Part shown: piece after piece, positions 7,451 to 29,558 of the stretch | Position numbering within the stretch: the stretch's first letter is position 1 | Layout: each line of letters opens with the position of its first letter | NCBI GenBank assembly: GCA_041159565.1 | Contig: JBEAXZ010000001.1 | Span: forward strand, 1-30,162 | Direction of reading: 5' to 3' | DNA length: 30,162 bases | Source of the DNA: Actinomycetota bacterium | GTDB taxonomy: Bacteria > Actinomycetota > Actinomycetes > Nanopelagicales > Nanopelagicaceae | The notes under the pieces: generated by a model | What the model saw: the letters and a program-made list of their open reading frames with translations, nothing else | Told to the model about the DNA's origin: nothing | The model's database searches: none | Position numbers and translations under genes: made by a program

Positions 7451-9337
7451 TCACCCTACAGTGATAGTCACTGTTGAGCCACGTTTTACCTTGGTCCCTA
7501 CCTTTGGTGAGACGTTGGTTACTACCTTAGTTTTCTTGTTTCCAACACTCTTAACAACCACCTTGAGATCCAAATCCTTCAACGTTGCAACCGCCTTATC
7601 TTGAGGAAGGGAAAAAATATTAGGAATAAAGACAAACTCTGAACCCTTTGATACCAATAGGGTGATCTTGCCTCCCTTATCTAATTCACCAGCTGCGGGG
7701 GATTGGCTTATTACGGCACCTATTGGTAAATCTTCGCTAAAGATGTACTTGATATCTACCTCGAAACCAGCCTCAGTCAACTCATTTAGAGCTTGTTCTC
7801 CACTCTTTCCTTTGTAGCTACTTACACCAATCTGCTCAATACCTTTTGAAACAAATATGTTGACCTGACTATCACGCTTAATCCGTTCACCTGCGGTGGG
7901 AGCAGAGCGCATTATGAAACCTTTAGGAAACTCCGAGGAAAACTCTTCTAATACCTCACCCAAAATCAACTTGTTATCCTTCAAAAGGTTCTCTGCGACT
8001 TCAATCTTTAAACCTTGTAAATTGGGAACTGAATAACGCTCTTTACCGCGAGATACTGTTACTGCAACAGTTCCATTGGTATCAGCCCTGCCTCCGCCAG
8101 CGGGCTGTGAAGAGATTACCTTTCCTTCCGGAATATCCTCGCTGAACTCTTCGCGAGCAATCGCAAGGTTTAAACCCAAATCCTCTAATTGGCTTTTGGC
8201 TTGCTTAGTAGTCAAGCCAGCCAGAGATGGCACAACAACCTTTGAGCCGGGACCAACGATTATGTACCAGGAAAAGATACCGAGGACTAATGCCAGCCCC
8301 GCCGCAATCCTACGATTTCGCTTAACCCGTGGAGAGGCGTTGCTCTTCTTTGTGGACGCGGTTTTCTCTTTTTTCGCCACAGTTTCCTCTTTCTGGATAC
8401 TCTTCTTGTTTCGGGTTTTGCTCTCTTTTGCGTTTGATTTGATTTGCACTGGAGGAAGATCCAACTCCAAACTCAACTGCCTTCGCTTGGGGTCAAGCTT
8501 TTCAGAAAGCGTTCTTAGTAACTCCTGTAACTCGCCAGCATCTTTTGGTCTTTTATCAGGATCTATATCGGTTGCCTTCAAAACCAACTCATCAACCTCT
8601 GGTGAGATATTTGAGTTTAGTGTTGAAGGAGCCGGTACACGATCATTTACATGGCGTATGGCGATCTGAACTGGATCTTCACCTTGATAAGGTTTCTGAC
8701 CGGTAAGTAGTTCAAATAAAACTATACCTAGTGAGTAAACATCACTTCTAGCGTCGGAAATACCTCTTTGTACCTGCTCGGGAGAAAGATATGAAACGCT
8801 TCCCAAAATAACACTGGACTCTGCGGTCATGGTGCTACCGAGCAGAGCTCCACGGGCTAATCCAAAATCAGCAATTTTTATGCGGCCCTCTTTGGAAACC
8901 AAAATGTTCTCTGGCTTAATGTCTCTATGAACAATTCCTAACCTATGCGCTGCCGCGAGCGCACTTGCCACCGGCGTAACTAATTGCAGGGCTCTTTCAG
9001 CAGGTAGTGCACCCTGCTCATGTAGATAGTCTCTTAGAGTTGAACCCTCAATTAGCTCCATGACTATGAAGACACATGGTGTTCCACCTTGATTCCAACC
9101 TTGATCCAATACGGCGACGATATTTGGGTGCGATAGTGATGCCGCAGCTTTTGCCTCCCGGATGAAGCGAGAGACAAATTGTTCATCCTGAGCCAAATGA
9201 GGATGCATGACTTTCACCGCAACTTGACGGTCAAGACGTAAATCTAATGCTGCATAAATGGTGGCCATGCCACCTGAGGCAACAATTCGAGTGAGTTGAT
9301 ATCGACCATCAATTACTTCACCCGTTAAATCTGACAC
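7451..9337 (-). CDS. Stk1/PknL-like PASTA-domain Ser/Thr protein kinase
   Basis: Kinase motifs GGMATIY, VAVKVM, HRDIKPEN, DFG and YLSPEQ, one TM helix (about residues 345-365), then repeated PASTA-like units. TAAAAT lies 7 nt before the GTG, suggesting its own leaderless promoter. Confidence 0.95.
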   Translation of the reverse strand: MSDLTGEVIDGRYQLTRIVASGGMATIYAALDLRLDRQVAVKVMHPHLAQDEQFVSRFIREAKAAASLSHPNIVAVLDQGWNQGGTPCVFIVMELIEGSTLRDYLHEQGALPAERALQLVTPVASALAAAHRLGIVHRDIKPENILVSKEGRIKIADFGLARGALLGSTMTAESSVILGSVSYLSPEQVQRGISDARSDVYSLGIVLFELLTGQKPYQGEDPVQIAIRHVNDRVPAPSTLNSNISPEVDELVLKATDIDPDKRPKDAGELQELLRTLSEKLDPKRRQLSLELDLPPVQIKSNAKESKTRNKKSIQKEETVAKKEKTASTKKSNASPRVKRNRRIAAGLALVLGIFSWYIIVGPGSKVVVPSLAGLTTKQAKSQLEDLGLNLAIAREEFSEDIPEGKVISSQPAGGGRADTNGTVAVTVSRGKERYSVPNLQGLKIEVAENLLKDNKLILGEVLEEFSSEFPKGFIMRSAPTAGERIKRDSQVNIFVSKGIEQIGVSSYKGKSGEQALNELTEAGFEVDIKYIFSEDLPIGAVISQSPAAGELDKGGKITLLVSKGSEFVFIPNIFSLPQDKAVATLKDLDLKVVVKSVGNKKTKVVTNVSPKVGTKVKRGSTVTITVG

Positions 9338-9347
9338 GGATGGAATT

Positions 9348-9926
9348 TTAGATGAAACTCATCCCATCGATGCGAATAGTCGCGCAATCGCGGGTGTTTT
9401 CCTGCTTAAAATGCTCTGATTCCTGCATTTGCCAGAGAATCATGTGATTTTGAATGTAATCACCATCACGCCGTAGAACTCGATTTAAACCAACCTCAGC
9501 TTCAATATCAATCCAAATGAGCTGGTCTAAATATTTGCGTACCGCCCGTTGCCCAGATCCAACCCCTTCGAGAATTAAGAGATCTGGAACCATGAGTCTT
9601 TGTAGTTCACCGTACTTCATGTTTAGCCAATCAAACTTACGGTATTCGAATGACTTACCTTCACTAACTGGCTTTGCGATACCAATCTCTAAGTTCTTAG
9701 TTAATGTGACACTGAGTGCGTTATCCCAACCGTCATATAGGTCATCCATATGAACTACTTCAACCTTTAGATCGGAGTAGTTACTCTGCAGCTTTTTGGC
9801 CAGGGTGGTCTTGCCCGCGCCCGCAGGACCATCGATCGCGATTATCCGAGAAAATCTACTTCGTCTTTCACCAGTCTCTACTGTTGAAACAACATCGGAA
9901 AGGGATATAGCTGAACTCTCAGTCAT
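9348..9926 (-). CDS. Uridine-kinase-like P-loop small-molecule kinase, substrate unknown
   Basis: Walker A DGPAGAGKTT, HMDDLYDGW and ILEGVGS. ATGA overlap with the upstream Pnu transporter. Confidence 0.8.
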   Translation of the reverse strand: MTESSAISLSDVVSTVETGERRSRFSRIIAIDGPAGAGKTTLAKKLQSNYSDLKVEVVHMDDLYDGWDNALSVTLTKNLEIGIAKPVSEGKSFEYRKFDWLNMKYGELQRLMVPDLLILEGVGSGQRAVRKYLDQLIWIDIEAEVGLNRVLRRDGDYIQNHMILWQMQESEHFKQENTRDCATIRIDGMSFI

Positions 9927-10504
9927 AGTTGAGTCTTCTGCTGCAATTTGCGCCAGCTAAACCAACCAAAGATTGCGAGAATGGTTAGCGCAACGTAAAG
10001 AACTGCAGTAAACCAATACTTTTGATTTGAGTAGTGATAAGTGGCAAATAGATTTATGCCAATCCATAAACTCCAAGCTTCGTGGCGCTGTAAGACCATA
10101 ACAATTTGTGCGACTGTGCTGGAAACCAATAGGAATGAGTCTGGCCTAGATGCTGCTGCTCCAATGTCAGAGAGAATCGGAGCGCTAACCAACCACATGC
10201 CGATCAGAGCCAGCGCCCACATACCGCGTTCCTTGTTGCTCATATATTTAGGTTGGGCACCAGTGGCATTCCATCCAAACCAGCCCCAAACCGCGGCTGA
10301 AATGAAAACAATCTGCAATAAGGCGCTGGCTAATAGATCAACCTCATAAAAAAAGATTCCGTACAAGGTGCTGCTTATTACCCACCAAGGCCAGGCGATT
10401 CTCTTACCTAAAGCCCCGAGAGTTACCGCAATAAAAGATGCAATTACAGAGGCAAACTCCAAATAGGTAACGCCATAACCCCAAGCGGTGAAGAAAACAG
10501 ACAT
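9923..10504 (-). CDS. pnuC: PnuC-family vitamin transporter (substrate unresolved: thiamine, a thiamine precursor, or nicotinamide riboside)
   Basis: Multi-TM protein with AWPWW, LLQ, STVAQ and the Pnu signature WxxWxxxN (WSLWIGIN). The true start is ATG 10504 (SD GGGAG 6 nt upstream); the track start at 10528 lies inside the riboswitch. Confidence 0.85.
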   Translation of the reverse strand: MSVFFTAWGYGVTYLEFASVIASFIAVTLGALGKRIAWPWWVISSTLYGIFFYEVDLLASALLQIVFISAAVWGWFGWNATGAQPKYMSNKERGMWALALIGMWLVSAPILSDIGAAASRPDSFLLVSSTVAQIVMVLQRHEAWSLWIGINLFATYHYSNQKYWFTAVLYVALTILAIFGWFSWRKLQQKTQL

Positions 10505-10507
10505 GAT

Positions 10508-10590
10508 TAGCTCCCTTCCAATTCGCATTACCGAACTGGTCTGACGGTCGACCCGCAGGTCCTCTCAGCCAACTTTTGGCTCCCGATTGG
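10508..10590 (-). promoter_or_regulatory. TPP-riboswitch-like element with non-canonical P4/P5
   Basis: The minus strand reads CCAAU-CGGGAGCCAAAAGUUGGC-UGAGA-G-GACCUGCGGGUC-GACCG-UCAG-ACCAGUUCGGUAAUGCGAAUUGGAAGGGAGC. It has P2 CGG/CCG, P3 GCCAA/UUGGC, the invariant UGAGA, P3a GACC/GGUC, L5 GUAAUG, and a 3' GAAGGGAG that is also the pnuC SD. Confidence 0.85.
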
Positions 10591-10595
10591 AATAG

Positions 10596-10605
10596 AGATT
10601 AACAT
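10596..10605. promoter_or_regulatory. Overlapping divergent -10 hexamers for the riboswitch-pnuC unit and crtYc
   Basis: Minus-strand TAATCT (10601-10596) is about 7 nt before the aptamer 5' end. Plus-strand TAACAT (10600-10605) is 5 nt before GTG 10611. Confidence 0.55.
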
Positions 10606-10610
10606 AAGAC

Positions 10611-10943
10611 GTGCTCCAATACAGTTACTTCGCCATGCTGGCCTTTACAGTGGTTGGGTCTTTTTGGCTGGAATTTATTTTCAAAGTAGGTGTATTGCGA
10701 AGGATGAAAAGGGCTTTACTGAGCATTATCCCTACCGCAACTATTTTTCTGATTTGGGATTACTACGCAGTTTACTCTGGACACTGGTTTTTCGATAAGC
10801 AACAGGTTGTCGGAGTTTATGGTCCCTCTGGCATACCGCTTGAGGAGTTTCTATTTTTCTTGGTAGTTCCGCTAGCTGCTTTGATGACAATTGAAGCGGT
10901 TCGCGCCGTTAAGAAACACTGGTCATTTGGAGATGAAATATGA
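10611..10943 (+). CDS. crtYc: Heterodimeric lycopene cyclase subunit (CrtYc-like)
   Basis: Small membrane protein with FLIWD, WFF and IPLEEFLFF. Lies in the carotenoid cluster and overlaps the next gene (ATGA). Confidence 0.85.
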   Translation: MLQYSYFAMLAFTVVGSFWLEFIFKVGVLRRMKRALLSIIPTATIFLIWDYYAVYSGHWFFDKQQVVGVYGPSGIPLEEFLFFLVVPLAALMTIEAVRAVKKHWSFGDEI

Positions 10944-11245
10944 CCTACACCCAATTAGCTCTACTTGCCGTTCCGTTGGTAGTAATTTTTGATTTATATA
11001 TTACCCGCTCTAGAATTTTGAAGCGTAAAAGCTTTTGGAACGCATACGCAATTTTGGTTTTTTTCCAATTAATAACAAACTGGTGGCTCACATCTAGAGG
11101 AATTCTTACCTACAGTGCTGATGCGATAACAGGGCTGAGAATTGCTGCCGCTCCTGCAGAAGACTTACTTTTCGGTTTCACAATGATCGTGATGACGATT
11201 TCTTTGTGGATGTATTGGGGTAGAAAAGGTGTACAGCGAGATTAA
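10940..11245 (+). CDS. crtYd: Heterodimeric lycopene cyclase subunit (CrtYd-like)
   Basis: Small membrane protein with MTYTQLA, TNWWLT and PAEDLLFGF. Confidence 0.85.
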   Translation: MTYTQLALLAVPLVVIFDLYITRSRILKRKSFWNAYAILVFFQLITNWWLTSRGILTYSADAITGLRIAAAPAEDLLFGFTMIVMTISLWMYWGRKGVQRD

Positions 11246-11247
11246 GG

Positions 11248-12156
11248 TTAGCGAACCTGTACCGCTTTAAACCAAGCTGGTAAAGCAACTTTGGCGCGAC
11301 GCAGAGTTGAGGTTTTGGCACGGTTATTGAAAACGTCGTAATCAATCTTTTCAACCTCATCAACGATTCCACAATAAAGTTCGCTAGCTGCCTGAATGCA
11401 GGGACGCGCTTCAGGGTTTAGCAGGGCAATACCTGAATCAGCTTTGGCTTGAAGCTCACGCACCCGATTAATTTGAAACTTCAAAGCTTCTATTACCTGA
11501 GGCGTTAACTTTCGCTCTTCCAACATTTTTCTGGAGACTCCAAAATGTTGCAGTTCTTGTAAAGGCAGGTAAACACGGCCTCGCTCCAAATCCTCGCCAA
11601 CATCTCTAATGAAGTTGGCGAGCTGGAAGGCAACTCCGAGATTCTCCGCTAGAGGCAGCGCTTCATTCTTTCTACCTTCTAACGTTCCCAACACATGAAC
11701 CATTTGTAATCCGATTACTGCAGCTGATCCATAAACATATTCCATAAGATCATCAAAACCTTGATACTCGGTTACGATTAAATCCATTGCCATAGAATGT
11801 AGGAATGCTTCAAAGTAGGAGATGGGAATTTCAAATTTCTGTACCGTGTCCACTAAAGCCGCCCCTACATGGTCAGAGCTTCTGCCGTTAGAGATATCCT
11901 GCAGCATCTGATCGCTCCAGCGTCTCAGATAATCTGACTTTTCCTGATTTGAAAGTGTGGAGGCCAAATCATCAACGATTTCATCGGCATAGCGAGCAAA
12001 TCCATATAAGGCATGTACATGGGGACGTTTAGCTTTTGGAAGCAGCAATGTGGCTAAGTAATAAGTTTTACCATGCAGCGAATTGAGTCTCTTACATTCT
12101 GCATAAGAGGCTCGAAGTGCTGGTTGGGTAATTCCAGCCGCTGTTAACTCATCCAT
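11248..12156 (-). CDS. crtB: Phytoene synthase
   Basis: Motifs HGKTYYLAT, ALYGFARYADEIVDD, YVYGSAAVIG and QLANFIRDVGEDLERGRVYLP. Confidence 0.96.
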   Translation of the reverse strand: MDELTAAGITQPALRASYAECKRLNSLHGKTYYLATLLLPKAKRPHVHALYGFARYADEIVDDLASTLSNQEKSDYLRRWSDQMLQDISNGRSSDHVGAALVDTVQKFEIPISYFEAFLHSMAMDLIVTEYQGFDDLMEYVYGSAAVIGLQMVHVLGTLEGRKNEALPLAENLGVAFQLANFIRDVGEDLERGRVYLPLQELQHFGVSRKMLEERKLTPQVIEALKFQINRVRELQAKADSGIALLNPEARPCIQAASELYCGIVDEVEKIDYDVFNNRAKTSTLRRAKVALPAWFKAVQVR

Positions 12157-12169
12157 AGTTGATTAAAGA

Positions 12170-13651
12170 CTACTTGACTGGCCCAACGATTCTCTCAGCG
12201 GCTAATCTTCCAGAGATTAGAACCATTGGAACACCAACCCCAGGCTGCGTTCCACTTCCAGTAAAGACCACATTGTCAAAGCCCTTAGCTAAATTCTTTG
12301 GTCTGAATGGTCCGGTTTGGAAGAAGGTGTGTGCGCTAGCAAAAGGTGCACCACGTTCTAGTCCCATGGCTTCCCACTCCAATGGCGTGGTTATGTGTTC
12401 GACCTCGATTGAATCGGCAAAACCTGTGTAACCGCGTTGTTCCATAGTTCTCAACATTTGATCGCGGTACTGGAGTTTGGTTTTCTTCCAATCAATATCA
12501 GCATCGAGGTTTGGGGTAGGGAAGAGAATGTAATAACTATGTTTACCTTTGGGAGCGAGTGCAGGATCATCCTTTGAAGGAACGGTAACTAAAAGGCTTG
12601 GGTCGCTCATTAAAGTTTTCTTCTTGATTAGTTCATCAAATACGCCATCCCATGATTCGCCGAAGTGAATGTTGTGATGAGCTAGGTGATCATAGCTTCG
12701 TGAAGAGCCGGCCAAAATTGTTACACAAGAAGGTGAATAGTTAAGGCGCTTGATTGATAAAGGGGATTTCCCTAATAGATCTCGCCATGCTACCGGTAGA
12801 TCAGGATTTAGGACCAGTGCATCACATTCGATCCGTTCGCCACTCGAGGTAATTACAGCTGTCGCTCTAGAACCACTCTTCTCAATTGTTTCTACGGTTG
12901 TGTTGTACTTAAACTCAACGCCATGCTTTGCAGCTGCTCCAGCCAAAGCTCGTGGAAGCGCATGCATTCCACCTTTTGGAAAGAAGACGCCATTAACCGA
13001 ATCCATGTAGGCAATAACCGCATAAATTGCCAGTGCTTGCTGTGGTGACACTCCGGCATACATTGCCTGGAATGAGTAAACCTTCTGGGTTCTGGGATCT
13101 TTTAGAAATTGTGAAACTTTTGGCGCTAATCTTCTAAACCCGCCAAGGGCAATTAACCGGGCCAAATTTGGAGTAAGCAAGTTTAAAGGCGTATCAATAT
13201 TTCTATCAATGAAATCATTCATTTCATAGCGGTAAAGCTTGGTAACAAACTCGACATAACGACGATATCCCGCCGCTTCATCACTGCCGATTACCTTTTC
13301 AATCTCAGCCTCCATTTGAGCGGTATCAGCATGAACATCTAACTGAGATCCATCATGATAAAAAGCTCGATATAAAGGCTGAAGCGGCATCAACTCGAGC
13401 CAATCCTCCAACTTCTCGCCAACGCAGGCCAGAGCATCAGAGATTAAGTCCGGCATGGTTAGCACAGTCGGTCCGGTATCAAATGAATAACCGGATTTCT
13501 CCAATAAACCATTTCGACCACCGGGAACAGATTCCCGCTCAATTACAGTGACTTTTCTACCTGCGCCTGCGAGACGTAAAGCGGTGCTGAGTCCAGCCAA
13601 TCCAGCCCCAACTACAACAACATGATCGCTCTTACCTTTGATGGTGCGCAT
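12170..13651 (-). CDS. crtI: Phytoene desaturase
   Basis: Motifs VVGAGLAGL, FDTGPTVLTMP, FPKGGMHAL and PGVGVPMVLISGRLAAERI. Sits between crtE and crtB. Confidence 0.93.
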   Translation of the reverse strand: MRTIKGKSDHVVVVGAGLAGLSTALRLAGAGRKVTVIERESVPGGRNGLLEKSGYSFDTGPTVLTMPDLISDALACVGEKLEDWLELMPLQPLYRAFYHDGSQLDVHADTAQMEAEIEKVIGSDEAAGYRRYVEFVTKLYRYEMNDFIDRNIDTPLNLLTPNLARLIALGGFRRLAPKVSQFLKDPRTQKVYSFQAMYAGVSPQQALAIYAVIAYMDSVNGVFFPKGGMHALPRALAGAAAKHGVEFKYNTTVETIEKSGSRATAVITSSGERIECDALVLNPDLPVAWRDLLGKSPLSIKRLNYSPSCVTILAGSSRSYDHLAHHNIHFGESWDGVFDELIKKKTLMSDPSLLVTVPSKDDPALAPKGKHSYYILFPTPNLDADIDWKKTKLQYRDQMLRTMEQRGYTGFADSIEVEHITTPLEWEAMGLERGAPFASAHTFFQTGPFRPKNLAKGFDNVVFTGSGTQPGVGVPMVLISGRLAAERIVGPVK

Positions 13652-14713
13652 TTATAAGCTCCGTTGGGTAGCGATGATGGCCATTTCCTCTAATGCACGG
13701 CCAATCTTGGTATCAATAAGTGGATCTCGCAATGCGAAAACGGCTTGCTCGGTCAACTCTGTGATGAGCTTCTCAACCTTGTCCTTTGCCCCGCAACCCT
13801 GGATTATTTGCTGTAGTTCGGCAATTTCTCCGTCAGAGATGTCCTGTTTACCAAGACCATTCTGGATTTTCTCTTTGTCTTCTGGAGCTGCCAGCTCCAT
13901 GGTTGTCGCGATTAACACAGTGCGCTTTCCTTCACGTAAATCATCACCAGATGGCTTTCCAGTGATTTTGGAATCGCCAAATACCCCAAGGAGATCATCG
14001 CGTAATTGAAAAGCTTCACCAAGAGGTAATCCATAACTGGAGAAAGTTTGGAAGAGATCGCTTCGCCCTGCCAGTGCAGCTCCAAAGTGCAAGGGCCTTT
14101 CGATGGAGTACTTGCCTGATTTGAATCGAGCTACTTTTAAAGATCTCTCAACACTTGTCGTAGCTAGCGCACCTTCCAAAACGTCCAAGTATTGTCCAGC
14201 CATCAACTCATCGCGCATTTCACAGAATACTTCTTGGCAATTAATAAACTCTGACTGAGCGATCCCAGATTCCACTAACATTCGATCCGCCCAGACCAAA
14301 GCCAAATCACCTAACAAAATTGCAGATGCGGTACCGAATCTTTGCGGATCGCCTTTTAAATTCTCCGAGCGATGAATGCCTTCAAATAATTTGTGAATGG
14401 CGGGTTTATTGCGCCTGGTATCTGACCCATCCATAACATCGTCATGAATTAGAGCGCAAACATGGACCAGCTCCAGCGCTGTACAGGCCTTTAAAATCTC
14501 TGGCCGAGGGTTTGCGCCACTCGCCAGGTAGCCCAAGTAAGCAAAAAGGGGCCTAAATCTTTTTCCACCATCATTTATGAAATCTGTCATCGCCTTAGCC
14601 ACAGGCGTTAACTCTGAGCCAATACTGCCCAGGTTGGCGCTTCGAGAGGTGGTGAACTCCGCCAGTATCTGATTCAGCTCATGTCTAATCTGAGAAAGTT
14701 CCAAAGATTTCAC
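13652..14713 (-). CDS. crtE: Geranylgeranyl diphosphate synthase (IdsA2/CrtE-like polyprenyl synthetase)
   Basis: Motifs GGKRFRP, LIHDDVMDGSDTRR, GQYLD, KSGKYS and FQLRDDLLG. Confidence 0.92.
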   Translation of the reverse strand: MKSLELSQIRHELNQILAEFTTSRSANLGSIGSELTPVAKAMTDFINDGGKRFRPLFAYLGYLASGANPRPEILKACTALELVHVCALIHDDVMDGSDTRRNKPAIHKLFEGIHRSENLKGDPQRFGTASAILLGDLALVWADRMLVESGIAQSEFINCQEVFCEMRDELMAGQYLDVLEGALATTSVERSLKVARFKSGKYSIERPLHFGAALAGRSDLFQTFSSYGLPLGEAFQLRDDLLGVFGDSKITGKPSGDDLREGKRTVLIATTMELAAPEDKEKIQNGLGKQDISDGEIAELQQIIQGCGAKDKVEKLITELTEQAVFALRDPLIDTKIGRALEEMAIIATQRSL

Positions 14714-14719
14714 GGCGCA

Positions 14720-14729
14720 ACGGTACCCT
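14720..14729. promoter_or_regulatory. Overlapping divergent -10 hexamers for leaderless crtE and metF
   Basis: Minus-strand TACCGT (14725-14720) is 6 nt before GTG 14713. Plus-strand TACCCT (14724-14729) is 8 nt before ATG 14738. Only 24 bp separate the two starts. Confidence 0.58.
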
Positions 14730-14737
14730 CCCGCTAT

Positions 14738-15586
14738 ATGTCTGGCTCGCCTACTTTTTCCGTTGAATTCTTTCCGCCCAAGGATGAGGCGGGAGAGGGC
14801 CGACTATGGGAGGCTTTAGCAGCCTTCGCAGATTGTCGCCCCGATTTCGCATCTGTCACCTATGGCGCCGGAGGTTCCTCTAGAGATCGCACCATAAAAA
14901 TTACCTCTGCTATAACCGTGCGCACCGGCATTCCAACTATCGCTCACCTAACATGTGTCGGCTCCACCAAAACAGAACTAGAAAAAATTCTGCAGCAATA
15001 TTCAGAATCTGGAATTAAATCTATTTTAGCCTTGCGTGGCGATCCTCAAGGTGGACCACAAGCCGATTGGATTTCGACGCCAAATGGATTTGATCACGCC
15101 GACGAGTTAGTTTCCTTAGGAGTACAGAGAGGTTTTGAAGTTGGCGTTGCCGCTTTTCCAGATGGCCACCCATCATCCAAAGGGGATTTCTCAAAAGATA
15201 TTGCAGTCTTATTGGAAAAGGAGAGAAGAGGAGCCAGTTTTGCGACCACTCAATTTTTCTTCGAGATAGATAAGTACTTTAATTTGGTTCAAAGTTTGAA
15301 GTTGGCTGGTTCTAAACTTGCTATTTTCCCCGGGATATTGCCCATAACAAATATCGCACAATTAAATCGCATGTCTCAGCTTTCAGGAACCCCAGTTCCA
15401 ACTCACGTGCAAGAAAGAATCTCGCAACATGAGTCGGATCCAGTGCGATTAAGAGAGGCTGGAATCGAGATTGCTGTAGAAATTTGCCAAGAGTTATTGA
15501 ACAGGGGAGTACCTGGCTTGCACTTCTATACGATGAACTCTGCAGTTTCTTCTAAAGAAATAGTCAGACGGATTGGTTTGAAATGA
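14738..15586 (+). CDS. metF: 5,10-methylenetetrahydrofolate reductase
   Basis: Motifs FSVEFFPPK, SVTYGAGGS, HLTCV, LALRGDP, TQFFF and GLHFYTMN. Start moved to ATG 14738 to avoid overlapping crtE. Confidence 0.94.
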   Translation: MSGSPTFSVEFFPPKDEAGEGRLWEALAAFADCRPDFASVTYGAGGSSRDRTIKITSAITVRTGIPTIAHLTCVGSTKTELEKILQQYSESGIKSILALRGDPQGGPQADWISTPNGFDHADELVSLGVQRGFEVGVAAFPDGHPSSKGDFSKDIAVLLEKERRGASFATTQFFFEIDKYFNLVQSLKLAGSKLAIFPGILPITNIAQLNRMSQLSGTPVPTHVQERISQHESDPVRLREAGIEIAVEICQELLNRGVPGLHFYTMNSAVSSKEIVRRIGLK

Positions 15587-16212
15587 AGCGGGAAGATTTC
15601 TTTTTAGAGTGGAGCAAGCTACATGGTGATGCAGAGATTAAAGGCATCGTCAAAGGCTGGCTATCTATTAGTTTTGCAGTTTGCAGTTTCATTTCTAAAT
15701 TAAAAGTTACACCCAATGGATTGAGTTATTTATCCTTGCTTTTAGCTGCTGGTTTTTTAATATTTATTGATTCAAACTGGGCAATTGCGCTACTGGTGTT
15801 ATCACTTGCGGCAGATGGCCTGGATGGAACATTGGCAATTATTACTGAACGCGTCAGTAAGTGGGGCGCAGCTCTTGATGCTGTTGCGGATCGAATAGTC
15901 GAAGCCATATGGGCGATTGGCCTTTATTTTTTAGGCGCTCCTTTAGAAGTAGTTGTATTGGCTTGGTTGGCGGCCTTTGTGCAGGAGTACATGAGAGCAC
16001 GGGCTGGAGGATTGGGCTTTCATAACATCGGGGTGGTCACAGTTGCAGAAAGGCCAATCCGAGCCAGCATGGTATTTATCGTCTTGGTTGCAAGAGCTGT
16101 TGAACTCGATCTTAGCTTTGGAATATCAATTTTCTGGGCTGTGCTTCAAACCTTCTCAGCATTTACTGTTTTCTTTACTCTTCGACAGCTGTTGCGACAA
16201 TCTCAGCGCTAA
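15583..16212 (+). CDS. CDP-alcohol phosphatidyltransferase family protein
   Basis: Contains TPNGLS and DGLDGTLAI-x7-GAALDAVADR, the family motif with the usual Arg replaced by Ile. ATGA overlap with metF. Confidence 0.82.
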   Translation: MKREDFFLEWSKLHGDAEIKGIVKGWLSISFAVCSFISKLKVTPNGLSYLSLLLAAGFLIFIDSNWAIALLVLSLAADGLDGTLAIITERVSKWGAALDAVADRIVEAIWAIGLYFLGAPLEVVVLAWLAAFVQEYMRARAGGLGFHNIGVVTVAERPIRASMVFIVLVARAVELDLSFGISIFWAVLQTFSAFTVFFTLRQLLRQSQR

Positions 16213-17683
16213 TTCCTACCAGAGGCAGCCCGCCTCCTGGATGGGCAGATCCGCCCACGCAATAAAGGTTTTTAATCGGGGAACGGTTTTTGGCGCGCAA
16301 GAATGCCGAGCGCACCCCATTACTAGATGTTCCATATATAGATCCACCTGGAGCGCTTACGTTGATTTCTAAATCTGCGGGAGTTCGAATCTCCATTACC
16401 TGCAATCTGGAGCGAACCTCCAAGCCACGCAACTCCATCAAATCAATAATGTGGTTGGCATAACTCTCTTTCAATCCGGGCTGCAGCCAATCAAAACCGG
16501 TAATTGGCTCATGTCTTGGAGCATTAATTAGAACAAACCAATTTTCTGAAGTTTCATCTTTAAGCATTTTAGGATCACCGGGATTGCAAATATAGATTGC
16601 GGGATCACGAACAGGCTGCTTTTCCTTAAAGATCTGATCAAACTCAGCGTCATAATTCTCTGGAAAGAAAACGGTGTGGTGGCCCAGATTGGATTTTCCC
16701 GATAAGCCAAGCAATAAACTGAATCCTGAGAGGGAAGGAGTAGCTTTTTTCAATGCTTTTCTCGCGCTGTTTGTCCTCCTGACTTTGGGAAGTAGTTTGT
16801 TGTAAACCAATTCAGCATCAGCATTTGCCACGACAACATCTGAATAATGCTCGGAATCATCTTCTAACTTAACCCCAATAGCAACCTTGTCCTTGAGTAA
16901 GATGTTTTTAACCGCCGAGTTGAATCGAAGATCGACACCTAAATCTCTAACTCGAGACTCCAAAGTTGTTGCCAAGCCGCCCAGGCCACCTTCAACATGC
17001 CAGGCGCCAAATGCCTCTTCGACAAATGCAATGGTTAGTAGAACAGCAGGAACTTCACGTGGATCAGATCCAGTGTAGGTTGCATAGCGGTCAATAATTT
17101 TTCTCAAGTAGGGATTGTTGGTGTATTGATTAGTTAAGTTTCGCAGAGATGTAGATGGTGCAATTGTTTTTAGATCCTTTAGAAAAGATTTGCGTTTTAG
17201 GATTTGAAGTGGTGATCTAAGCTCACTTTCAATAAAGGATTCCCGGGAGGCATCCCACATTTTTTCTGCTCGGGATAAGAGTTGATGCCATTCTTGCCCT
17301 GCCTGTGCACCAAATGCTGCTGCAATCGCAGATACGGTGTTGTTATGAGATAGATTGGGGAAAACCACCTTTACTCCATCATGAAAGATATATGTAAAGG
17401 CGGGATCCACTGGCTTGATGTTTAAGAGATGTTCAATTCGCTTTCCGGTCTTCAAAAAAAGATCACGGTAAACTGCAGGGAGAGTAAGTAGTGATGGGCC
17501 GGTATCAAATGCAAAACCATCAATCCACTCAGTTCGGCATTTGCCTCCAGCAAACTCTGCAGCCTCGAAAATCTGAACCTTGTGGCCACGTTTAGCTAAA
17601 CGTGCAGCGGTAGCCAAGCCCCCCATTCCCGCACCAATAACAATCACCCGTTTGGGTGACTCGGTAACCCGGTGGTAACTCAT
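16175..17683 (-). CDS. Second CrtI-family FAD carotenoid desaturase/oxidase, probably CrtD-like (1'-hydroxycarotenoid 3',4'-desaturase)
   Basis: Motifs IGAGMGGL, FDTGPSLLTLP and HPGGGLPLV. Co-transcribed with GT2, CruF-like and CrtA-like genes. The CrtD assignment rests on context. Confidence 0.8.
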   Translation of the reverse strand: MSYHRVTESPKRVIVIGAGMGGLATAARLAKRGHKVQIFEAAEFAGGKCRTEWIDGFAFDTGPSLLTLPAVYRDLFLKTGKRIEHLLNIKPVDPAFTYIFHDGVKVVFPNLSHNNTVSAIAAAFGAQAGQEWHQLLSRAEKMWDASRESFIESELRSPLQILKRKSFLKDLKTIAPSTSLRNLTNQYTNNPYLRKIIDRYATYTGSDPREVPAVLLTIAFVEEAFGAWHVEGGLGGLATTLESRVRDLGVDLRFNSAVKNILLKDKVAIGVKLEDDSEHYSDVVVANADAELVYNKLLPKVRRTNSARKALKKATPSLSGFSLLLGLSGKSNLGHHTVFFPENYDAEFDQIFKEKQPVRDPAIYICNPGDPKMLKDETSENWFVLINAPRHEPITGFDWLQPGLKESYANHIIDLMELRGLEVRSRLQVMEIRTPADLEINVSAPGGSIYGTSSNGVRSAFLRAKNRSPIKNLYCVGGSAHPGGGLPLVGISAEIVATAVEE

Positions 17684-18768
17684 ATTTGTCTACCTCGCCA
17701 GACCAGCTCACCGCGACTCTTTCGGTACCAAGAGAGAATTATCAAATACATCCAGAGGCCAGCACTAAGTGGATGCAGTGAAGCACTGCTAACAACTGAG
17801 TTGGTCTTGAAAGCCACTAGCAATCTGGATGCCACCAAGGCGAAGTACCCATACCACCCTGAAATTTCGCCACTCAAACCTAACGCGATTGGCAGTATGG
17901 AAGAGGTAAAGAGAATTACTATTGCTATGGCCGCTCCGATAGGAGAAACAAAGGCTCGCCATTGGGATTTGCTGTATCCCTCAATAAGTTCAGCTGCGTT
18001 GTTATACATCCTACAGATCGCAACCTTCGAACCATCTGCAACTCCGCCAGAAAAACCACCGCGAACCAATAATCGACCAAGCTCTAAATCATCCAGAACC
18101 TCAGATTTAATCGCTTCGTGGCCACCAGTTTTTAAATAGGCCTCTCGTTTCACGATAAGAAACTGACCATTGGCTACCACCATAGATGGTCTACTCAGTT
18201 TTTCAGCCAAGCGAAGTGGAAGTGAGGCGAACCATGACCATTGCAACAAAGGTTGAGCCAATCTTTCAAGAAATGTAATAGCTAATTGTCGCGGATATGG
18301 CGATAGAAAATCCCAGGCCAAACGATCCATCAAAGCAATTGAACTACTAACTGCGTAAGGGCTGAGACGTACATCGGCATCAACAAATACCAAATACTTG
18401 GCCTGCGACTTTTGCGCCAACTGATGGCAAGCAAAGTTCTTTCCTAACCAGCCATATGGGAGTTCTGAGCCAGAGTGAACAAATAGATTTGCAGCTGAAA
18501 ACTGGCTTATTTGCTCCACGGTGTCATCAGAGGAGCTATCGTTTAACATCACTATTTCAAAATTGCTTAGGCCCTTTTGGTTTAGAACTGATTCCATCAA
18601 CCCGGGTACGTTTTGGGATTCATTACGCAAGGGAATCAGTATTGAAACAGAATCAATTAAATCCGGTATTTCTTGGTTTTTAACCACCCGAACTGTAAGG
18701 ACATTCAGAGCTGTAATGGCGAGAATTAATAGGTTTAGTCCCAACAGAAACTCGGCCAAAATCTGCAT
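17680..18768 (-). CDS. Family 2 glycosyltransferase, likely carotenoid glycosyltransferase
   Basis: Motifs ILIPLRNE, WLGKNFAC, FVDAD, ANGQF and VLDDL, with N- and C-terminal TM segments, in a carotenoid context. Confidence 0.85.
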   Translation of the reverse strand: MQILAEFLLGLNLLILAITALNVLTVRVVKNQEIPDLIDSVSILIPLRNESQNVPGLMESVLNQKGLSNFEIVMLNDSSSDDTVEQISQFSAANLFVHSGSELPYGWLGKNFACHQLAQKSQAKYLVFVDADVRLSPYAVSSSIALMDRLAWDFLSPYPRQLAITFLERLAQPLLQWSWFASLPLRLAEKLSRPSMVVANGQFLIVKREAYLKTGGHEAIKSEVLDDLELGRLLVRGGFSGGVADGSKVAICRMYNNAAELIEGYSKSQWRAFVSPIGAAIAIVILFTSSILPIALGLSGEISGWYGYFALVASRLLVAFKTNSVVSSASLHPLSAGLWMYLIILSWYRKSRGELVWRGRQI

Positions 18769-18770
18769 CT

Positions 18771-19577
18771 TTAATCGCGACGACCAAAACGCACAGAGAT
18801 GAAGTAAGCCAAGACATATAACCCTAGAGCGGATCCGGAAAAGAATGCGACTCCCGGTCGATCAAAGAAGAAGGCATTTGCAACTATTCCACCTATCAAA
18901 CTCCAAGCTAAAAAGAATTCAGGGACGGCGCGGCTAGCGCCTAATGATCTGCGCTCTTTCGGTAACAAAATATTCAATAGCGCCATTAAACCCATGCCAG
19001 TTAGTAGCCAGCCAAATGTATTGGAAAGCGGAATCTCAGGCTGAAACGGAACTGTTCTACCGGTTATCTCCCAACTCCAACGACCAGCAGAGACCATTTG
19101 TGGATCTAGGAATAAATCCCATGACATCAGTCCATAACCGCCTGCTAAAAATACCCAATTAGGTGCTATGCGACGCGCTGCAAGAAATATCGGATGAGCC
19201 ATCATTATCCAGGCAAACGGAACAACTAGTGGCACTCCGTAAACTTGATAACCCAAGGTTCCTGAGTACTCATAACTTCCAAAAGGCCAAGAGGTTCGAA
19301 CCCCTATTTGTTCTACAACTAGCGCATATAAAAAGGTAATAACCAAAAAACGAATTGCATAGGAAATCCCATATGCAAACCATGAATGCAACAGCATCGC
19401 GCCGGCCGCCCAGTAAACAGTTGCAATTGTTATTAACCGAAGCACCTCACCATCAGTAATTGGATAGGCAATTTGCAACCCCAATGCAACTGTTAAGACA
19501 GATAGCAAAAGGAAGTTTTGAAATGGCGTGATGGTGCGTCGTGAATCCCGTCTAGGACGAAAATTGCGTACCGACAT
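18771..19577 (-). CDS. cruF: Carotenoid 1',2'-hydratase (CruF/DUF422-like)
   Basis: Motifs EQIGVRTSWPFGSYEY, GVPLVVPFAW, SWDLFLDP and PLSNTFGW. Confidence 0.8.
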   Translation of the reverse strand: MSVRNFRPRRDSRRTITPFQNFLLLSVLTVALGLQIAYPITDGEVLRLITIATVYWAAGAMLLHSWFAYGISYAIRFLVITFLYALVVEQIGVRTSWPFGSYEYSGTLGYQVYGVPLVVPFAWIMMAHPIFLAARRIAPNWVFLAGGYGLMSWDLFLDPQMVSAGRWSWEITGRTVPFQPEIPLSNTFGWLLTGMGLMALLNILLPKERRSLGASRAVPEFFLAWSLIGGIVANAFFFDRPGVAFFSGSALGLYVLAYFISVRFGRRD

Positions 19578-25990: not shown

Positions 25991-26060
25991 GGGCGGATAC
26001 TGACATGAGTTTGGCGTGTCGTTGCTGAACAACACTTCTGGGGCCGGTCGGGCTTGTGCC

Positions 26061-26082
26061 TGTCAGGGCGGGCCGCTAAGGT
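26061..26082 (+). promoter_or_regulatory. PafBC/RecA-NDp-type DNA-damage promoter
   Basis: TGTCAG-N10-TAAGGT matches the mycobacterial consensus TGTCGG-N10-TANNNT. ATG follows 8 nt later. Confidence 0.65.
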
Positions 26083-26098
26083 TCGAACAAATGTTCGA
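26083..26098. promoter_or_regulatory. LexA (SOS) box
   Basis: TCGAAC-AAAT-GTTCGA is a perfect match to the actinobacterial TCGAAC-N4-GTTCGA. It overlaps ATG 26091 and lies upstream of dnaE2/dinB. Confidence 0.9.
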
Positions 26099-26366
26099 AA
26101 AATCTGAAATATACCTAGCTGGCGGCGAACCCATCGAGTTTGTCCACAATGGCCAGCGTTTTCGCATACACACAGTTCTCTCCTCCTGGCGGGAGTCGGG
26201 TGGCTGGTGGAATCGGGCCAGCGATGGCTTATTCCGCCCCGATGATGGATCTCGGATTCTCTGGCGGGTTGAGGCGGCTCCAATCGGGGCGATGAAAACC
26301 TTTGAGATAGAGCGTGAAGAGGGCGTTGGTTTATGGCGGATTCGTCCCACCTCACGCCCGGCTTAA
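26091..26366 (+). CDS. Small DUF6504-like protein (resembles the ImuB C-terminal module)
   Basis: Pattern PIEFVHNGQRFRI..VLSSWRESGGWW...WRVEA...WRI, located directly upstream of dnaE2. Start moved from 26016 to ATG 26091. Confidence 0.65.
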   Translation: MFEKSEIYLAGGEPIEFVHNGQRFRIHTVLSSWRESGGWWNRASDGLFRPDDGSRILWRVEAAPIGAMKTFEIEREEGVGLWRIRPTSRPA

Positions 26367-26378
26367 AAGTTAAAGATC

Positions 26379-29300
26379 ATGAGCTTCACCCATCTACATG
26401 TAGCTAGTGGTTTCTCATTTAAATATGGCACCACTTTGCCTGACGCATTAGTAGCTAAAGCAAGAGATTTTGGCATGCACTCTATGGCTTTAACTGATCG
26501 TGATGGTTTATCCGGTGCTATTAGATTCACTCAAAGCTGTTTGGAAAATCAAATATCTCCAATAATCGGGGTCGATATCTCATATGAAAATCAAACTCGC
26601 ATCACCCTGCTGGCTACACCAGGCAAAGGCTGGTCATCTTTAGTCAGAGTTGTTACCCAACTTAAAAATTATGGCGCTCCTTGTGATCTTAACTTTTTAA
26701 AACAAAACTCAAACTATACTCAAAACCTACTAGCTTTACATGGTCCAGATTCAGAGATTTCCCGGGCTTTAACCTCGAGACGTTATGACAAAGCTTTGTT
26801 AATTTTTAACTCTGCTCGAGATTTATTTATAGATCAAAGTATCGAATGTGTTTCCCATTTGATTTATGGTGATGGTCCGAAATCCACTACCCATGCCGCC
26901 CGCATGCTTAATTTTGCTCGAGATCATGATTTGCCGGCGGTTTTAACCAATGCGGTAAGGATGAAAAGCAGGGAAGATGCACCGATAGCTGATGTATTAG
27001 ATGCCACTCGCAACTTACTGCCTCTACACAAAAAAGTCGTAGAACGTAAAAACGCAGAAGCTTTTTTGAAAAACTCAGATGAGATGATTTTTATTGCCGA
27101 TAAAATCGCAGCTGCTGCTGGAGAAAGAAATGCAAACCAGTTATTAAAAACCACAACAGAATGGGCTGAGCGTGCGGTTTTATCGCCACAATCAGATATC
27201 GGCTTAGGCTCTATCCACCTTCCCGAACCAGATGTTGTGGGCGCTAAATCTCAACTAGAGCTAACCGCACAGCTCCGGAGTCGAGCCTATGCCGGGGTTA
27301 ATTGGCGTTATGGTGGTTTGAGTTCAGAGGTAGAGGAGCGTTTAAATAAAGAGCTCTCCATCATCGCTAGCTTGGGTTATGAATCTTATTTTTTAACAGT
27401 TGCAGATATAACTGACAGAGCACGAAATACTGGAATACGAGTGGCGGCTCGAGGTAGCGGCGCCGGATCTTTGGTCTGTCATCTTTTAGGGATTTCTGGT
27501 GTCGAGCCTCTATCTCTAGGGCTATTAATGGAGCGGTTCTGCTCACCGCTTCGTAAGGCGCTGCCAGATATAGATATAGATGTTGAATCAGCGCGCAGAT
27601 TAGAGATTTATGATCAAGTCTTTGAGAGTTACCAACAACGCTGCGCCACGGTTGCGATGTTTGATAAGTATCGAGCCCGTCATGCGATTCGAGATGTAGG
27701 TGCGGCGCTATCACTGCCACCGATGGAGATAGATTTAGTAGCAAAGTCCCTACCTCATATTCGAGCTCGAAATATCTCTCAGGCTTTAGAAAATCTGCCA
27801 GAGTTAAAGAACCTTAATCTGACATCTGGAACTTGGAAGATGGCAATTGGCCTAGCTGAAAGATTAGATGGCTTGCCACGAAACTTGGCGATGCATCCTT
27901 GTGCGGTAGTTATCTCAGATATCGGTCTTTATGATCGCGCCCCAATAGAAATAAATGCCAGCAACTACCCGATGGTGCAGTGGGATAAGGATGATGTAGA
28001 AGCTATTGGGCTATTAAAGCTAGATATTCTCGGAGTCAGAATGCAGTCAGCCTTAGCTTACTCAGTATCTGAGCTGAAAAGGAGCGCAAATCTTTCTCTT
28101 GATTTAGATGCTATTCCACTAGATGATCCAAAAACCTTCGAACTTATTCAATCAACCAAGACATTGGGTTTATTCCAAATTGAAAGTCCAGGTCAGCGAG
28201 AGTTAGTGGGGAAGTTCGCTCCACAAAGTTTTACCGATTTAATTATTGATATCTCACTTTTCCGCCCCGGCCCAGTTAAGAGCGACATGATTACCCCATT
28301 TCTAAATGCTCGCCAAGGCTGGAAAGATAGAGAGATTTTTCATCCCGACTTATTAGAGATTCTCGATGACACTGAAGGGGTAGTTGTTTTCCATGAACAG
28401 GTAATTGAAATCATCGCGACACTAGGTGGAGTTACCTTGGCGCAAGCCGATGAAAAACGCCGTGCTTTAGGGGATAAGAAGGGTCAACAAGAGGTTTGTG
28501 ATTGGTTTTTTCCAGCAGCCACAGCACGGGGCTACTCCCTAGAGGTTGTTACCAAGATGTGGGAGGTGCTGCGCGCCTTCGCCTCCTTCGGATTTTGTAA
28601 AGCCCATGCTGCAGCTTTTGCTTTGCCTACCTATCAATCAGCCTGGCTAAAGGCCCATTACCCAGCAGCTTTTTTAGCTGGGGTCTTAACCCATGATCCA
28701 GGAATGTACCCAAAGCGTTTGATACTTGATGAGGCAAGAAGGTTTGGCGTGAAGATTGAAAAGCTTGATATCAATAAATCTGACCGCAGCTACAGAGTTG
28801 AAAATGATTCCAGTATTCGCCTGGCCCTGGCTGATATCTCTGGAATTAGCGATAGTGAGATTGATGCGATATTGAGTAATCGCCCCTTTGTTGATTTGGC
28901 TGATTTTGTGCACCGCAGTGGCGTAAGCCGTCCTACCTGTGAAGCACTGTTAATGGTTGGAGCTTTTGATGCTTTATATCCCGACACTTTGAATCGTAGG
29001 GATTTATTACTGCATTTAAATGATCTATATAAATGGTCCCGCACCTCAAGCAAGGCGTTATCTAATTTAAGTGGCTCTCAACTCACCTTTGGTTTTACCC
29101 CCGAGTTATCTAAAACCGGTTTACCTGATCTGCAGGCCCACGAACAGGTTAGAAATGAAATAGAGTTTTTAGGGATGGATATCTCTCATCACATGATGGA
29201 GTTCTATGCTGAGTTTTTAAATCAAATCGGAGCGGTTAAATCCTCAGATTTAATAAAACAACGCTCTAACTCCTCAATTCTAGTGGCTGGAGTAAAGGTG

Positions 29301-29558
29301 ATTTTGCAAACCCCGCCTATCCGATCCGGTAAAAGAGTTATCTTCGTAACCCTAGATGATGGCAATGGTTGTAGCGATGCAACCTTTTTTGAAGATGCCC
29401 AACGTTCTTATGCTGAGACGCTCTATAACTCAAAATTACTTTTAGTCAGAGGTAATTTACGTCGCACAGGTGCCCGTGGTGTTTCAATAAGAGCAACAGG
29501 GGCGTGGGATTTATCAGCCGCCTATGAAAAGTGGCGTAATCTCGCGCTCTGTGAGTGA
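26379..29558 (+). CDS. dnaE2: Error-prone DNA polymerase III alpha subunit DnaE2
   Basis: PHP-like HLHVAS and ALTDRD with degenerate metal ligands; RGSGAGS, catalytic PDIDID, HPCAVV, KLDILG and FGFCKAHAA; C-terminal OB fold; SOS box upstream. Confidence 0.92.
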   Translation: MSFTHLHVASGFSFKYGTTLPDALVAKARDFGMHSMALTDRDGLSGAIRFTQSCLENQISPIIGVDISYENQTRITLLATPGKGWSSLVRVVTQLKNYGAPCDLNFLKQNSNYTQNLLALHGPDSEISRALTSRRYDKALLIFNSARDLFIDQSIECVSHLIYGDGPKSTTHAARMLNFARDHDLPAVLTNAVRMKSREDAPIADVLDATRNLLPLHKKVVERKNAEAFLKNSDEMIFIADKIAAAAGERNANQLLKTTTEWAERAVLSPQSDIGLGSIHLPEPDVVGAKSQLELTAQLRSRAYAGVNWRYGGLSSEVEERLNKELSIIASLGYESYFLTVADITDRARNTGIRVAARGSGAGSLVCHLLGISGVEPLSLGLLMERFCSPLRKALPDIDIDVESARRLEIYDQVFESYQQRCATVAMFDKYRARHAIRDVGAALSLPPMEIDLVAKSLPHIRARNISQALENLPELKNLNLTSGTWKMAIGLAERLDGLPRNLAMHPCAVVISDIGLYDRAPIEINASNYPMVQWDKDDVEAIGLLKLDILGVRMQSALAYSVSELKRSANLSLDLDAIPLDDPKTFELIQSTKTLGLFQIESPGQRELVGKFAPQSFTDLIIDISLFRPGPVKSDMITPFLNARQGWKDREIFHPDLLEILDDTEGVVVFHEQVIEIIATLGGVTLAQADEKRRALGDKKGQQEVCDWFFPAATARGYSLEVVTKMWEVLRAFASFGFCKAHAAAFALPTYQSAWLKAHYPAAFLAGVLTHDPGMYPKRLILDEARRFGVKIEKLDINKSDRSYRVENDSSIRLALADISGISDSEIDAILSNRPFVDLADFVHRSGVSRPTCEALLMVGAFDALYPDTLNRRDLLLHLNDLYKWSRTSSKALSNLSGSQLTFGFTPELSKTGLPDLQAHEQVRNEIEFLGMDISHHMMEFYAEFLNQIGAVKSSDLIKQRSNSSILVAGVKVILQTPPIRSGKRVIFVTLDDGNGCSDATFFEDAQRSYAETLYNSKLLLVRGNLRRTGARGVSIRATGAWDLSAAYEKWRNLALCE

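What the first reader, a model, noticed from the sequence alone, without database searches (positions are those of the whole stretch)
9348..10504. Pnu transporter coupled to a uridine-kinase-like enzyme: candidate non-orthologous vitamin salvage kinase
Seen in sequence: pnuC and a 192-aa P-loop kinase overlap by ATGA, and both sit under the riboswitch. The next gene, the PASTA kinase, has its own candidate -10 (TAAAAT over the stop codon), so this looks like a two-gene regulated unit. Established knowledge: Pnu proteins are facilitators that need a trapping kinase. Known partners are NadR-type NR kinase, thiamine pyrophosphokinase or riboflavin kinase. Eukaryotic NRK1 has a uridine-kinase-like fold. 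Inference: this enzyme could be an undescribed thiamine/HMP kinase or a bacterial NRK-like enzyme. The transporter motif ends WxxWxxxN. As I recall, Asn is typical of NR-transporting PnuC and Asp of many thiamine/riboflavin Pnu proteins. If so, the transporter and riboswitch point to different substrates, which makes the unit more curious.
Basis: partly seen in the sequence, partly recalled or inferred. Interest (0 to 1): 0.68.

Follow-up and report, generated by a model that had tools for sequence, protein, structure and literature searches.

The report
Probable new-fold thiamine (vitamin B1) kinase
Abundant freshwater actinobacteria that cannot make vitamin B1 carry a riboswitch-controlled importer plus an unstudied kinase that probably does the missing step of trapping imported B1, with a protein fold not known for that job.

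Summary
In detail: pnu (9923-10504) overlaps a 192-aa P-loop kinase (9348-9926) by ATGA, behind a TPP-like RNA, and pknL has its own conserved -10. The organism is an acI actinobacterium (Nanopelagicaceae). The proposed substrate conflict fails: the motif residue is Asp in 159 of 182 orthologues and toggles about 10 times. In 151 genomes of the order, 137 have this Pnu, 11 others have a ThiB-type thiamine ABC importer instead (no overlap), and the last 3 make thiamine. ThiL is found in 150; TPK in none; ThiE and ThiD in 4. A thiamine-to-TMP kinase is therefore missing. This kinase is found in all 148 genomes with an importer and, in a distant clade, follows ykoEDC, mostly under a TPP riboswitch. 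It has a UCK/PRK fold but lacks the ribose-diol residues of UCK and NRK1. Best reading: a non-orthologous thiamine kinase (about 0.72; no assay). The PnuT assignment is published, and the RNA type lacking the pyrophosphate pocket was mentioned in 2017. The scan noted the RNA variant and this operon type on other DNA before.

The parts
10596..10604 (-). Candidate extended -10 promoter (TG-T-TAATCT) of the operon; transcript predicted to start just before the aptamer, leaving little or no P1 5' strand
   Evidence: TAnnnT lies 8-12 nt before the aptamer in 161/175 non-redundant loci; inferred, not mapped
10518..10586 (-). Variant TPP riboswitch aptamer: pyrimidine-sensing half (CUGAGA at 10563-10568) and L5 loop intact; the J4/5 and J5/4 internal loop (pyrophosphate pocket) deleted, so P4-P5 is one 8-bp helix (10518-10539)
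   Evidence: Rfam alignment with both 2-nt loops missing; covariation over 53 sequences, 92.8% of cells paired, 0/500 shuffles as high; 5' arm 8 nt in 170/171 Pnu-linked copies versus 9-10 nt in canonical ones
10511..10517 (-). Shine-Dalgarno-like AAGGGAG directly 3' of the aptamer, 6 nt before the pnu ATG; suggests direct translational control
   Evidence: sequence; mechanism type common in Actinobacteria (PMC2258182)
9923..10504 (-). Pnu-family transporter, functionally PnuT (thiamine facilitator); motif W144-W147-N151 at 10052-10075
   Evidence: 137/151 genomes, mutually exclusive with a ThiB-type ABC importer; PnuT role proposed in PMC5301498
9348..9926 (-). P-loop kinase of UCK/PRK/PanK-I fold, PRK06547-like; predicted thiamine kinase (thiamine to TMP). 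Walker A at residues 33-40 (9807-9830); D61, E120, R149, R153, D154 invariant in acI
   Evidence: distribution
9345..9350 (-). Candidate -10 (TAAAAT) for a leaderless pknL transcript; marks the end of the regulated unit
   Evidence: conserved just before the pknL start codon across orthologues
7451..9337 (-). PASTA Ser/Thr kinase (PknL-like); positional landmark, probably transcribed separately
   Evidence: the same gene follows thiO-thiS-thiG in genus g32

Best explanation
A minimal vitamin B1 salvage operon. The Pnu protein lets thiamine in by facilitated diffusion. The P-loop kinase phosphorylates thiamine's hydroxyethyl OH with ATP to TMP and traps it. ThiL, encoded elsewhere, makes TPP. 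The leader is a TPP riboswitch that has lost its pyrophosphate pocket, probably reads thiamine or the total B1 pool, and controls translation of the coupled pair. Shown here: gene anatomy, conservation, fold, pathway presence and absence, transporter exclusivity, RNA structure change. Inferred: substrate of the kinase, ligand of the RNA, direction of regulation.
For: (1) Pathway hole in 151 genomes of the order: ThiL 150, TPK 0, ThiE 4, ThiD 4; no ThiK near cut-off in 5 near-complete genomes (20-22 bits versus 299). PnuT does not bind TMP or TPP (PMC5749112), so TMP must be made inside. (2) Pnu is found in 137; 11 of the other 14 are exactly the genomes with a SfuA/ThiB importer, and the 8 of these checked have a canonical-type TPP riboswitch on it; the remaining 3 have ThiE and ThiD. 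(3) The kinase is found in 149/151, including all 148 genomes with an importer. The two without it have canonical TPP-thiO-thiS-thiG-pknL and divergent thiE at this same locus. (4) A distant clade of the family directly follows ykoE-ykoD-ykoC in 6/40 other Actinomycetes loci, 4 of them with a TPP riboswitch, and stays beside yko even when gene order changes. (5) Catalytic Asp and Glu are kept, while the ribose-diol Asp segment is missing and the Arg is Gly in acI (roles from PMC1994991); thiamine has a single primary OH. (6) Variant riboswitch-pnu-kinase also occurs at an unrelated locus in family f50.
Against: No enzyme assay exists. 32 of 40 non-acI class loci show no thiamine neighbour, and in Micrococcaceae the domain is fused to PabB, so the wider family may have other or broader roles. 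Kinase absence rests on one genus (one event), and G142 keeps the kinase with de novo genes and no importer found. An APH-family phosphotransferase gives faint ThiK scores in 4/5 genomes. The ThiK search covered only 5 genomes. Residue equivalences come from profile alignments through T. thermophilus UCK, not from superposed coordinates.
Confidence: 0.72

Rival explanations
1. The transporter imports thiamine, but the kinase is a broad or differently specific small-molecule kinase riding in the operon; TMP comes from ThiL acting twice or from the APH-type phosphotransferase.
Against: Two distant clades are each tied to a different TPP-regulated vitamin importer; overlap with pnu is conserved; the APH protein sits among acyl-CoA and alcohol dehydrogenase-like genes and was not found in 1 of 5 genomes.
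Confidence: 0.13
2. Bacterial NRK-like enzyme with an NR-transporting PnuC (NAD salvage).
For: TIGR01528 PnuC above cut-off; Asn in this copy's motif; NRK1 shares the fold (Z 13.0).
Against: Asp in 159/182 orthologues; a TPP-class RNA upstream, with no NAD riboswitch family matched; exclusivity with ThiB; NadA in 5/5 genomes; equivalents of NRK1 Asp56 and Arg129 not retained; NRK1 ranks well below UCK, PRK and PanK.
Confidence: 0.04
3. Ordinary uridine/cytidine kinase, as databases name it.
For: Best structural match is human UCK2 (Z 19.3, rmsd 2.4, 166 aligned); JGI names many homologues uridine kinase.
Against: 33-38 bits against udk cut-offs of 180-220; the NYDHPDAFD segment is missing, the ribose Arg is Gly, and the base-recognition His/Tyr column is variable; cyanobacterial PRK and PanK-I score within 1 Z of UCK2.
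Confidence: 0.04
4. The unit handles a thiamine fragment or vitamer (HMP, HET, or a degraded thiamine) or the kinase pyrophosphorylates thiamine directly.
For: The RNA keeps the aminopyrimidine pocket and loses the phosphate pocket; YkoEDC is listed for both B1 and HMP (PMC6593275).
Against: ThiE and ThiD are found in only 4/151 genomes, so HMP-P or HET-P would have no onward route; ThiL is kept in 150/151, which implies a TMP intermediate.
Confidence: 0.07

Closest known systems
PnuT plus thiamine-trapping kinase operons (Shewanella woodyi PnuT; PMC5749112)
   Same: Pnu facilitator with a co-encoded kinase; the logic of uptake and trapping
   Different: The partner is neither ThiK (APH/choline-kinase fold, own knowledge) nor TPK, but a P-loop UCK/PRK-fold protein; no outer-membrane receptor; variant aptamer
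acI THI element plus pnuC proposed as PnuT (Kang et al. 2017, PMC5301498)
   Same: Same lineage and the same riboswitch-transporter pair
   Different: In the passages found, that paper does not discuss the downstream kinase or the altered aptamer, and says nearly all salvage enzymes are missing
E. coli ThiK (TIGR02721)
   Same: Predicted reaction, thiamine to TMP feeding ThiL
   Different: No match of this protein to TIGR02721 at E 0.01; different fold
Uridine-cytidine kinase (UCK2, T. thermophilus UCK) and human NRK1
   Same: Fold, Walker A, catalytic Asp and Glu, lid Arg-Asp
   Different: Ribose-diol residues and base-recognition residues not retained; family-specific YxGW, W100 and W/F165; 16-22% identity
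PRK06547 family (NF005115, hypothetical protein)
   Same: Best family match; C. glutamicum has a member over cut-off (control)
   Different: 113 bits, below the cut-off of 173; family has no assigned function
TPP riboswitch RF00059, and the P4-P5 variants mentioned as unpublished in McCown et al. 2017 (PMC5473149)
   Same: P2, P3, P3a, CUGAGA, L5 loop; the variants are said to bind thiamin about as well as TMP and TPP
   Different: Here the internal loop is cleanly deleted; whether this is the same variant cannot be checked, as no sequences were given in the text read

Membership tests
Pnu transporter family | PF04973 / TIGR01528 match and WxxW(x)3D/N motif | tested here: met
PnuT (thiamine-specific Pnu) | Genomic context of thiamine salvage (TPP riboswitch, replaces another thiamine importer) | tested here: met
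PnuT (thiamine-specific Pnu) | Measured thiamine binding or transport | not testable with these tools
   needs liposome or uptake assay
PnuC (NR-specific) | Link to NadR or an NAD riboswitch; Asn as a specificity marker | tested here: not met
   no NAD riboswitch or nadR at the locus; Asp in 159/182 orthologues
UCK/PRK/PanK-I P-loop kinase superfamily | Fold, Walker A, catalytic Asp after strand 2, Glu of xxEG | tested here: met
   Z 19.3, rmsd 2.4, 166 aligned; D61 and E120 invariant in acI
Uridine kinase (udk/UCK) | Score above udk cut-offs | tested here: not met
   33-38 bits versus 180-220
Uridine kinase (udk/UCK) | DHPDAFD ribose-binding segment, lid Arg, base-recognition His/Tyr | tested here: not met
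   segment is a gap against the profile; G146 in 55/59 acI; column 103 variable
NRK1/NRK2 | Asp56 and Arg129 holding the ribose 2',3'-diol | tested here: inconclusive
   equivalents appear absent, but mapped through the UCK alignment rather than directly
ThiK or TPK | Match to TIGR02721 or PF04263 | tested here: not met
   no hit at E 0.01
PRK06547 (NF005115) | Curated cut-off 173 bits | tested here: not met
   113 bits; homologous, with acI as its own moderately supported clade (SH-aLRT 88)
Thiamine kinase (functional class) | ATP + thiamine gives TMP | not testable with these tools
   inferred from pathway hole and context only
TPP riboswitch RF00059 | Pyrimidine-sensing helix with CUGAGA and L5 loop | tested here: met
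   invariant in 53 sequences
TPP riboswitch RF00059 | Pyrophosphate pocket (A61, C77, G78) and gathering score | tested here: not met
   loop deleted, 38.1 < 54.3 bits; CG after P5 absent in 162/171; roles from 10.1101/2025.01.21.634073

The most novel reading that the evidence does not exclude
The PRK06547-like family is the missing actinobacterial thiamine kinase: a P-loop UCK/PRK-fold enzyme unrelated to ThiK and TPK, used by about 60% of sampled Actinomycetes, and in acI paired with a riboswitch retuned from TPP to free thiamine when the de novo thiOSG operon was replaced in place by an uptake-and-trap pair.
Probability: 0.45. Interest if true: 0.75.

Novelty: new variant of a known kind. 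Interest (0 to 1): 0.62.

Why it matters
acI bacteria dominate many lakes and are thiamine auxotrophs, yet their genomes show no known way to activate imported thiamine. This gene fills that hole with a specific prediction that one assay can test. It would give a function to an unannotated family found in 154 of 251 sampled Actinomycetes genomes, now mislabelled uridine kinase or aminobenzoate synthetase, and add a new fold to thiamine phosphorylation. The locus also offers a natural series for how a riboswitch's ligand pocket changes when biosynthesis is swapped for uptake.

Tried and rejected
Rfam at gathering found nothing in the window; the aptamer appears only at E-value threshold. MFE folding of the leader was uninformative (z -0.86). 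The sigma-70 scan found no promoter; both -10 boxes rest on conservation. A class-wide test of kinase versus TPK anti-correlation failed: the 95 PF04263 hits cover only a short N-terminal stretch of the model (about positions 6-45), and the one checked is a SteA-like protein. SteA was not found in G000 or 5 near-complete acI genomes with one query. Longer-form searches found no fusion to a thiamine gene, only PabB, NUDIX, acetyltransferase, peptidase and HATPase partners. A NadR-like AAA_28 hit in one Planktophila-type genome has no pnu beside it. The ESM Atlas gave only unannotated or uridine-kinase-named clusters. Literature searches found no report of a P-loop thiamine kinase or of this gene; the library is incomplete. 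I could not confirm from the tools where the C. glutamicum homologue lies. The careful tree did not finish; the quick tree was used. No complex prediction was run. Unpublished genomes: G212 (locus L352) served only as the SteA query and identification; G042 and G464 appear only in tallies; no main claim rests on them.

Full report
Observation. The window encodes, on the minus strand, a Pnu-family transporter (9923-10504), a 192-aa P-loop protein (9348-9926) and a PASTA Ser/Thr kinase (7451-9337). The first two overlap by ATGA. TAAAAT covers the kinase stop, 7 nt before the pknL GTG, and a similar hexamer stays just ahead of the pknL start in orthologues with very different intergenic lengths. 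This supports a separate, leaderless pknL transcript and a two-gene regulated unit. Close homologues are named Nanopelagicaceae, and the loci of the pattern scan whose titles were listed come from freshwater actinobacterial genomes and MAGs. RNA-pnu-kinase is conserved in 30/30 genus loci and in 11 genera.

The RNA. Rfam finds nothing at gathering but aligns a full TPP model at 38.1 bits. The alignment lacks exactly the two 2-nt strands between P4 and P5. In the E. coli aptamer these hold A61, C77 and G78, which bind Mg and the pyrophosphate (10.1101/2025.01.21.634073). Over 53 orthologues the proposed structure is 92.8% paired with compensatory changes, and CUGAGA and the L5 loop are invariant. 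The 5' arm is 8 nt in 170/171 Pnu-linked copies. None of the top non-acI phylum hits that could be parsed shows this closed helix; nearly all keep the CG after P5. McCown et al. 2017 mention unpublished P4-P5 variants that bind thiamin about as well as TMP and TPP. Earlier scan reports describe this variant on other DNA; I had seen it independently.

The transporter is a thiamine importer. The published motif is WxxW(x)3D/N. Orthologues at this locus have Asp 159 times and Asn 23 times, with about 10 changes on the tree. In a sample of 151 genomes of the order, 137 have this Pnu. Eleven have a SfuA/ThiB thiamine-binding protein, and all 11 are among the 14 without Pnu. The eight checked carry a canonical-type TPP riboswitch on that ABC operon. 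These swaps fall in four genera, and two have Pnu-bearing sister lineages on the kinase tree, so they are several events, though not 11. The last three genomes have ThiE and ThiD. Kang et al. 2017 had already proposed PnuT from the THI element.

The pathway hole. ThiL is found in 150/151 genomes, TPK in 0, ThiE and ThiD in 4. ThiK scores are 20-22 bits against a cut-off of 299 in five near-complete genomes; the one examined is an APH-family protein among dehydrogenase genes. PnuT does not bind TMP or TPP. Imported thiamine therefore needs an unidentified kinase to become ThiL's substrate. The candidate is found in 149/151 genomes, including all 148 with an importer. The two without it (genus g32) carry thiE and a canonical TPP-thiO-thiS-thiG operon directly before pknL at the same locus. 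So the salvage pair occupies the place of the biosynthetic operon; the direction of replacement is inferred. NadA is present in 5/5, so there is no matching NAD gap there.

Independent context. The related family PRK06547 occurs in 154/251 Actinomycetes genomes. Of 40 non-acI loci, six have the kinase right after ykoE-ykoD-ykoC, four of them with a TPP riboswitch, and two have variant RNA-pnu-kinase at an unrelated site. In Mycolicibacterium the kinase lies either after or before the yko genes. The yko-linked kinases fall in a clade far from the acI ones. The other 32 loci show no thiamine neighbour, and Micrococcaceae fuse the domain to PabB. This is the main caution on extending the claim to the whole family.

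The protein. The model is confident (pLDDT 96.6). It matches UCK2 (Z 19.3), cyanobacterial PRK (19.1) and PanK-I (18.7), with NRK1 at 13.0. Walker A, D61, E120, R149, R153 and D154 are invariant in acI, consistent with an active alcohol kinase; the equivalent Asp36 and Glu98 are essential in NRK1. The UCK segment carrying the ribose-binding Asp is missing from the profile alignment, and the lid Arg is Gly in 55/59 acI sequences (Arg in most other members). Y64, W67 and W100 are invariant in acI, and residue 165 is always aromatic. A diol-free, aromatic pocket would suit a thiazolium alcohol; that is inference.

Mechanism and verdict. Most likely: thiamine enters through Pnu, is trapped as TMP by this kinase, and ThiL makes TPP; the aptamer, with the SD at its 3' edge, limits translation when B1 is plentiful (0.72 for the kinase's role). 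The design is known. The enzyme class in this role appears undescribed in the literature I could search. It is a new variant of a known kind, directly testable; interest 0.62.

Noticed in passing
G000:C132 (L033): A second copy of RNA-pnu-kinase-pknL with about 41-56% protein identity; its closest loci are 73% identical and include a g26 genome. Probably a contig from another acI bin rather than a duplication.
   Followed up: partly
L166 (G039:C11) and P0245-P0250: In Micrococcaceae the kinase domain is fused N-terminally to PabB (aminodeoxychorismate synthase I), the likely source of the misleading name aminobenzoate synthetase.
   Followed up: partly
L123, L124 (G142, G088): Two g28 genomes have a thiC-thiM-thiE-thiD cluster away from the pknL locus, while keeping the kinase; possibly regained biosynthesis.
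   Followed up: partly
L181, L182 (family f50): Variant riboswitch-pnu-kinase next to a tRNA gene at a locus unrelated to pknL, suggesting transfer of the whole unit.
   Followed up: partly
L352-L357: PF04263 (TPK) passes its cut-off on SteA-like proteins in many Actinomycetes, which would falsely fill the thiamine-kinase gap in automated reconstructions.
   Followed up: partly
window 10611-19577: Carotenoid cluster: two lycopene-cyclase-domain proteins (Pfam) and, by inspection, crtB-, crtI-, crtE-like genes, a second desaturase and a glycosyltransferase; metF lies within it.
   Followed up: no
window 26016-29558: A 116-aa ORF followed by a 1059-aa DnaE2-like polymerase subunit (by inspection).
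   Followed up: no
L075, L084, L100: A few Pnu-linked aptamers (9/171) keep CG right after P5 with a 1-nt longer 3' arm; possible intermediates between canonical and closed forms.
   Followed up: partly
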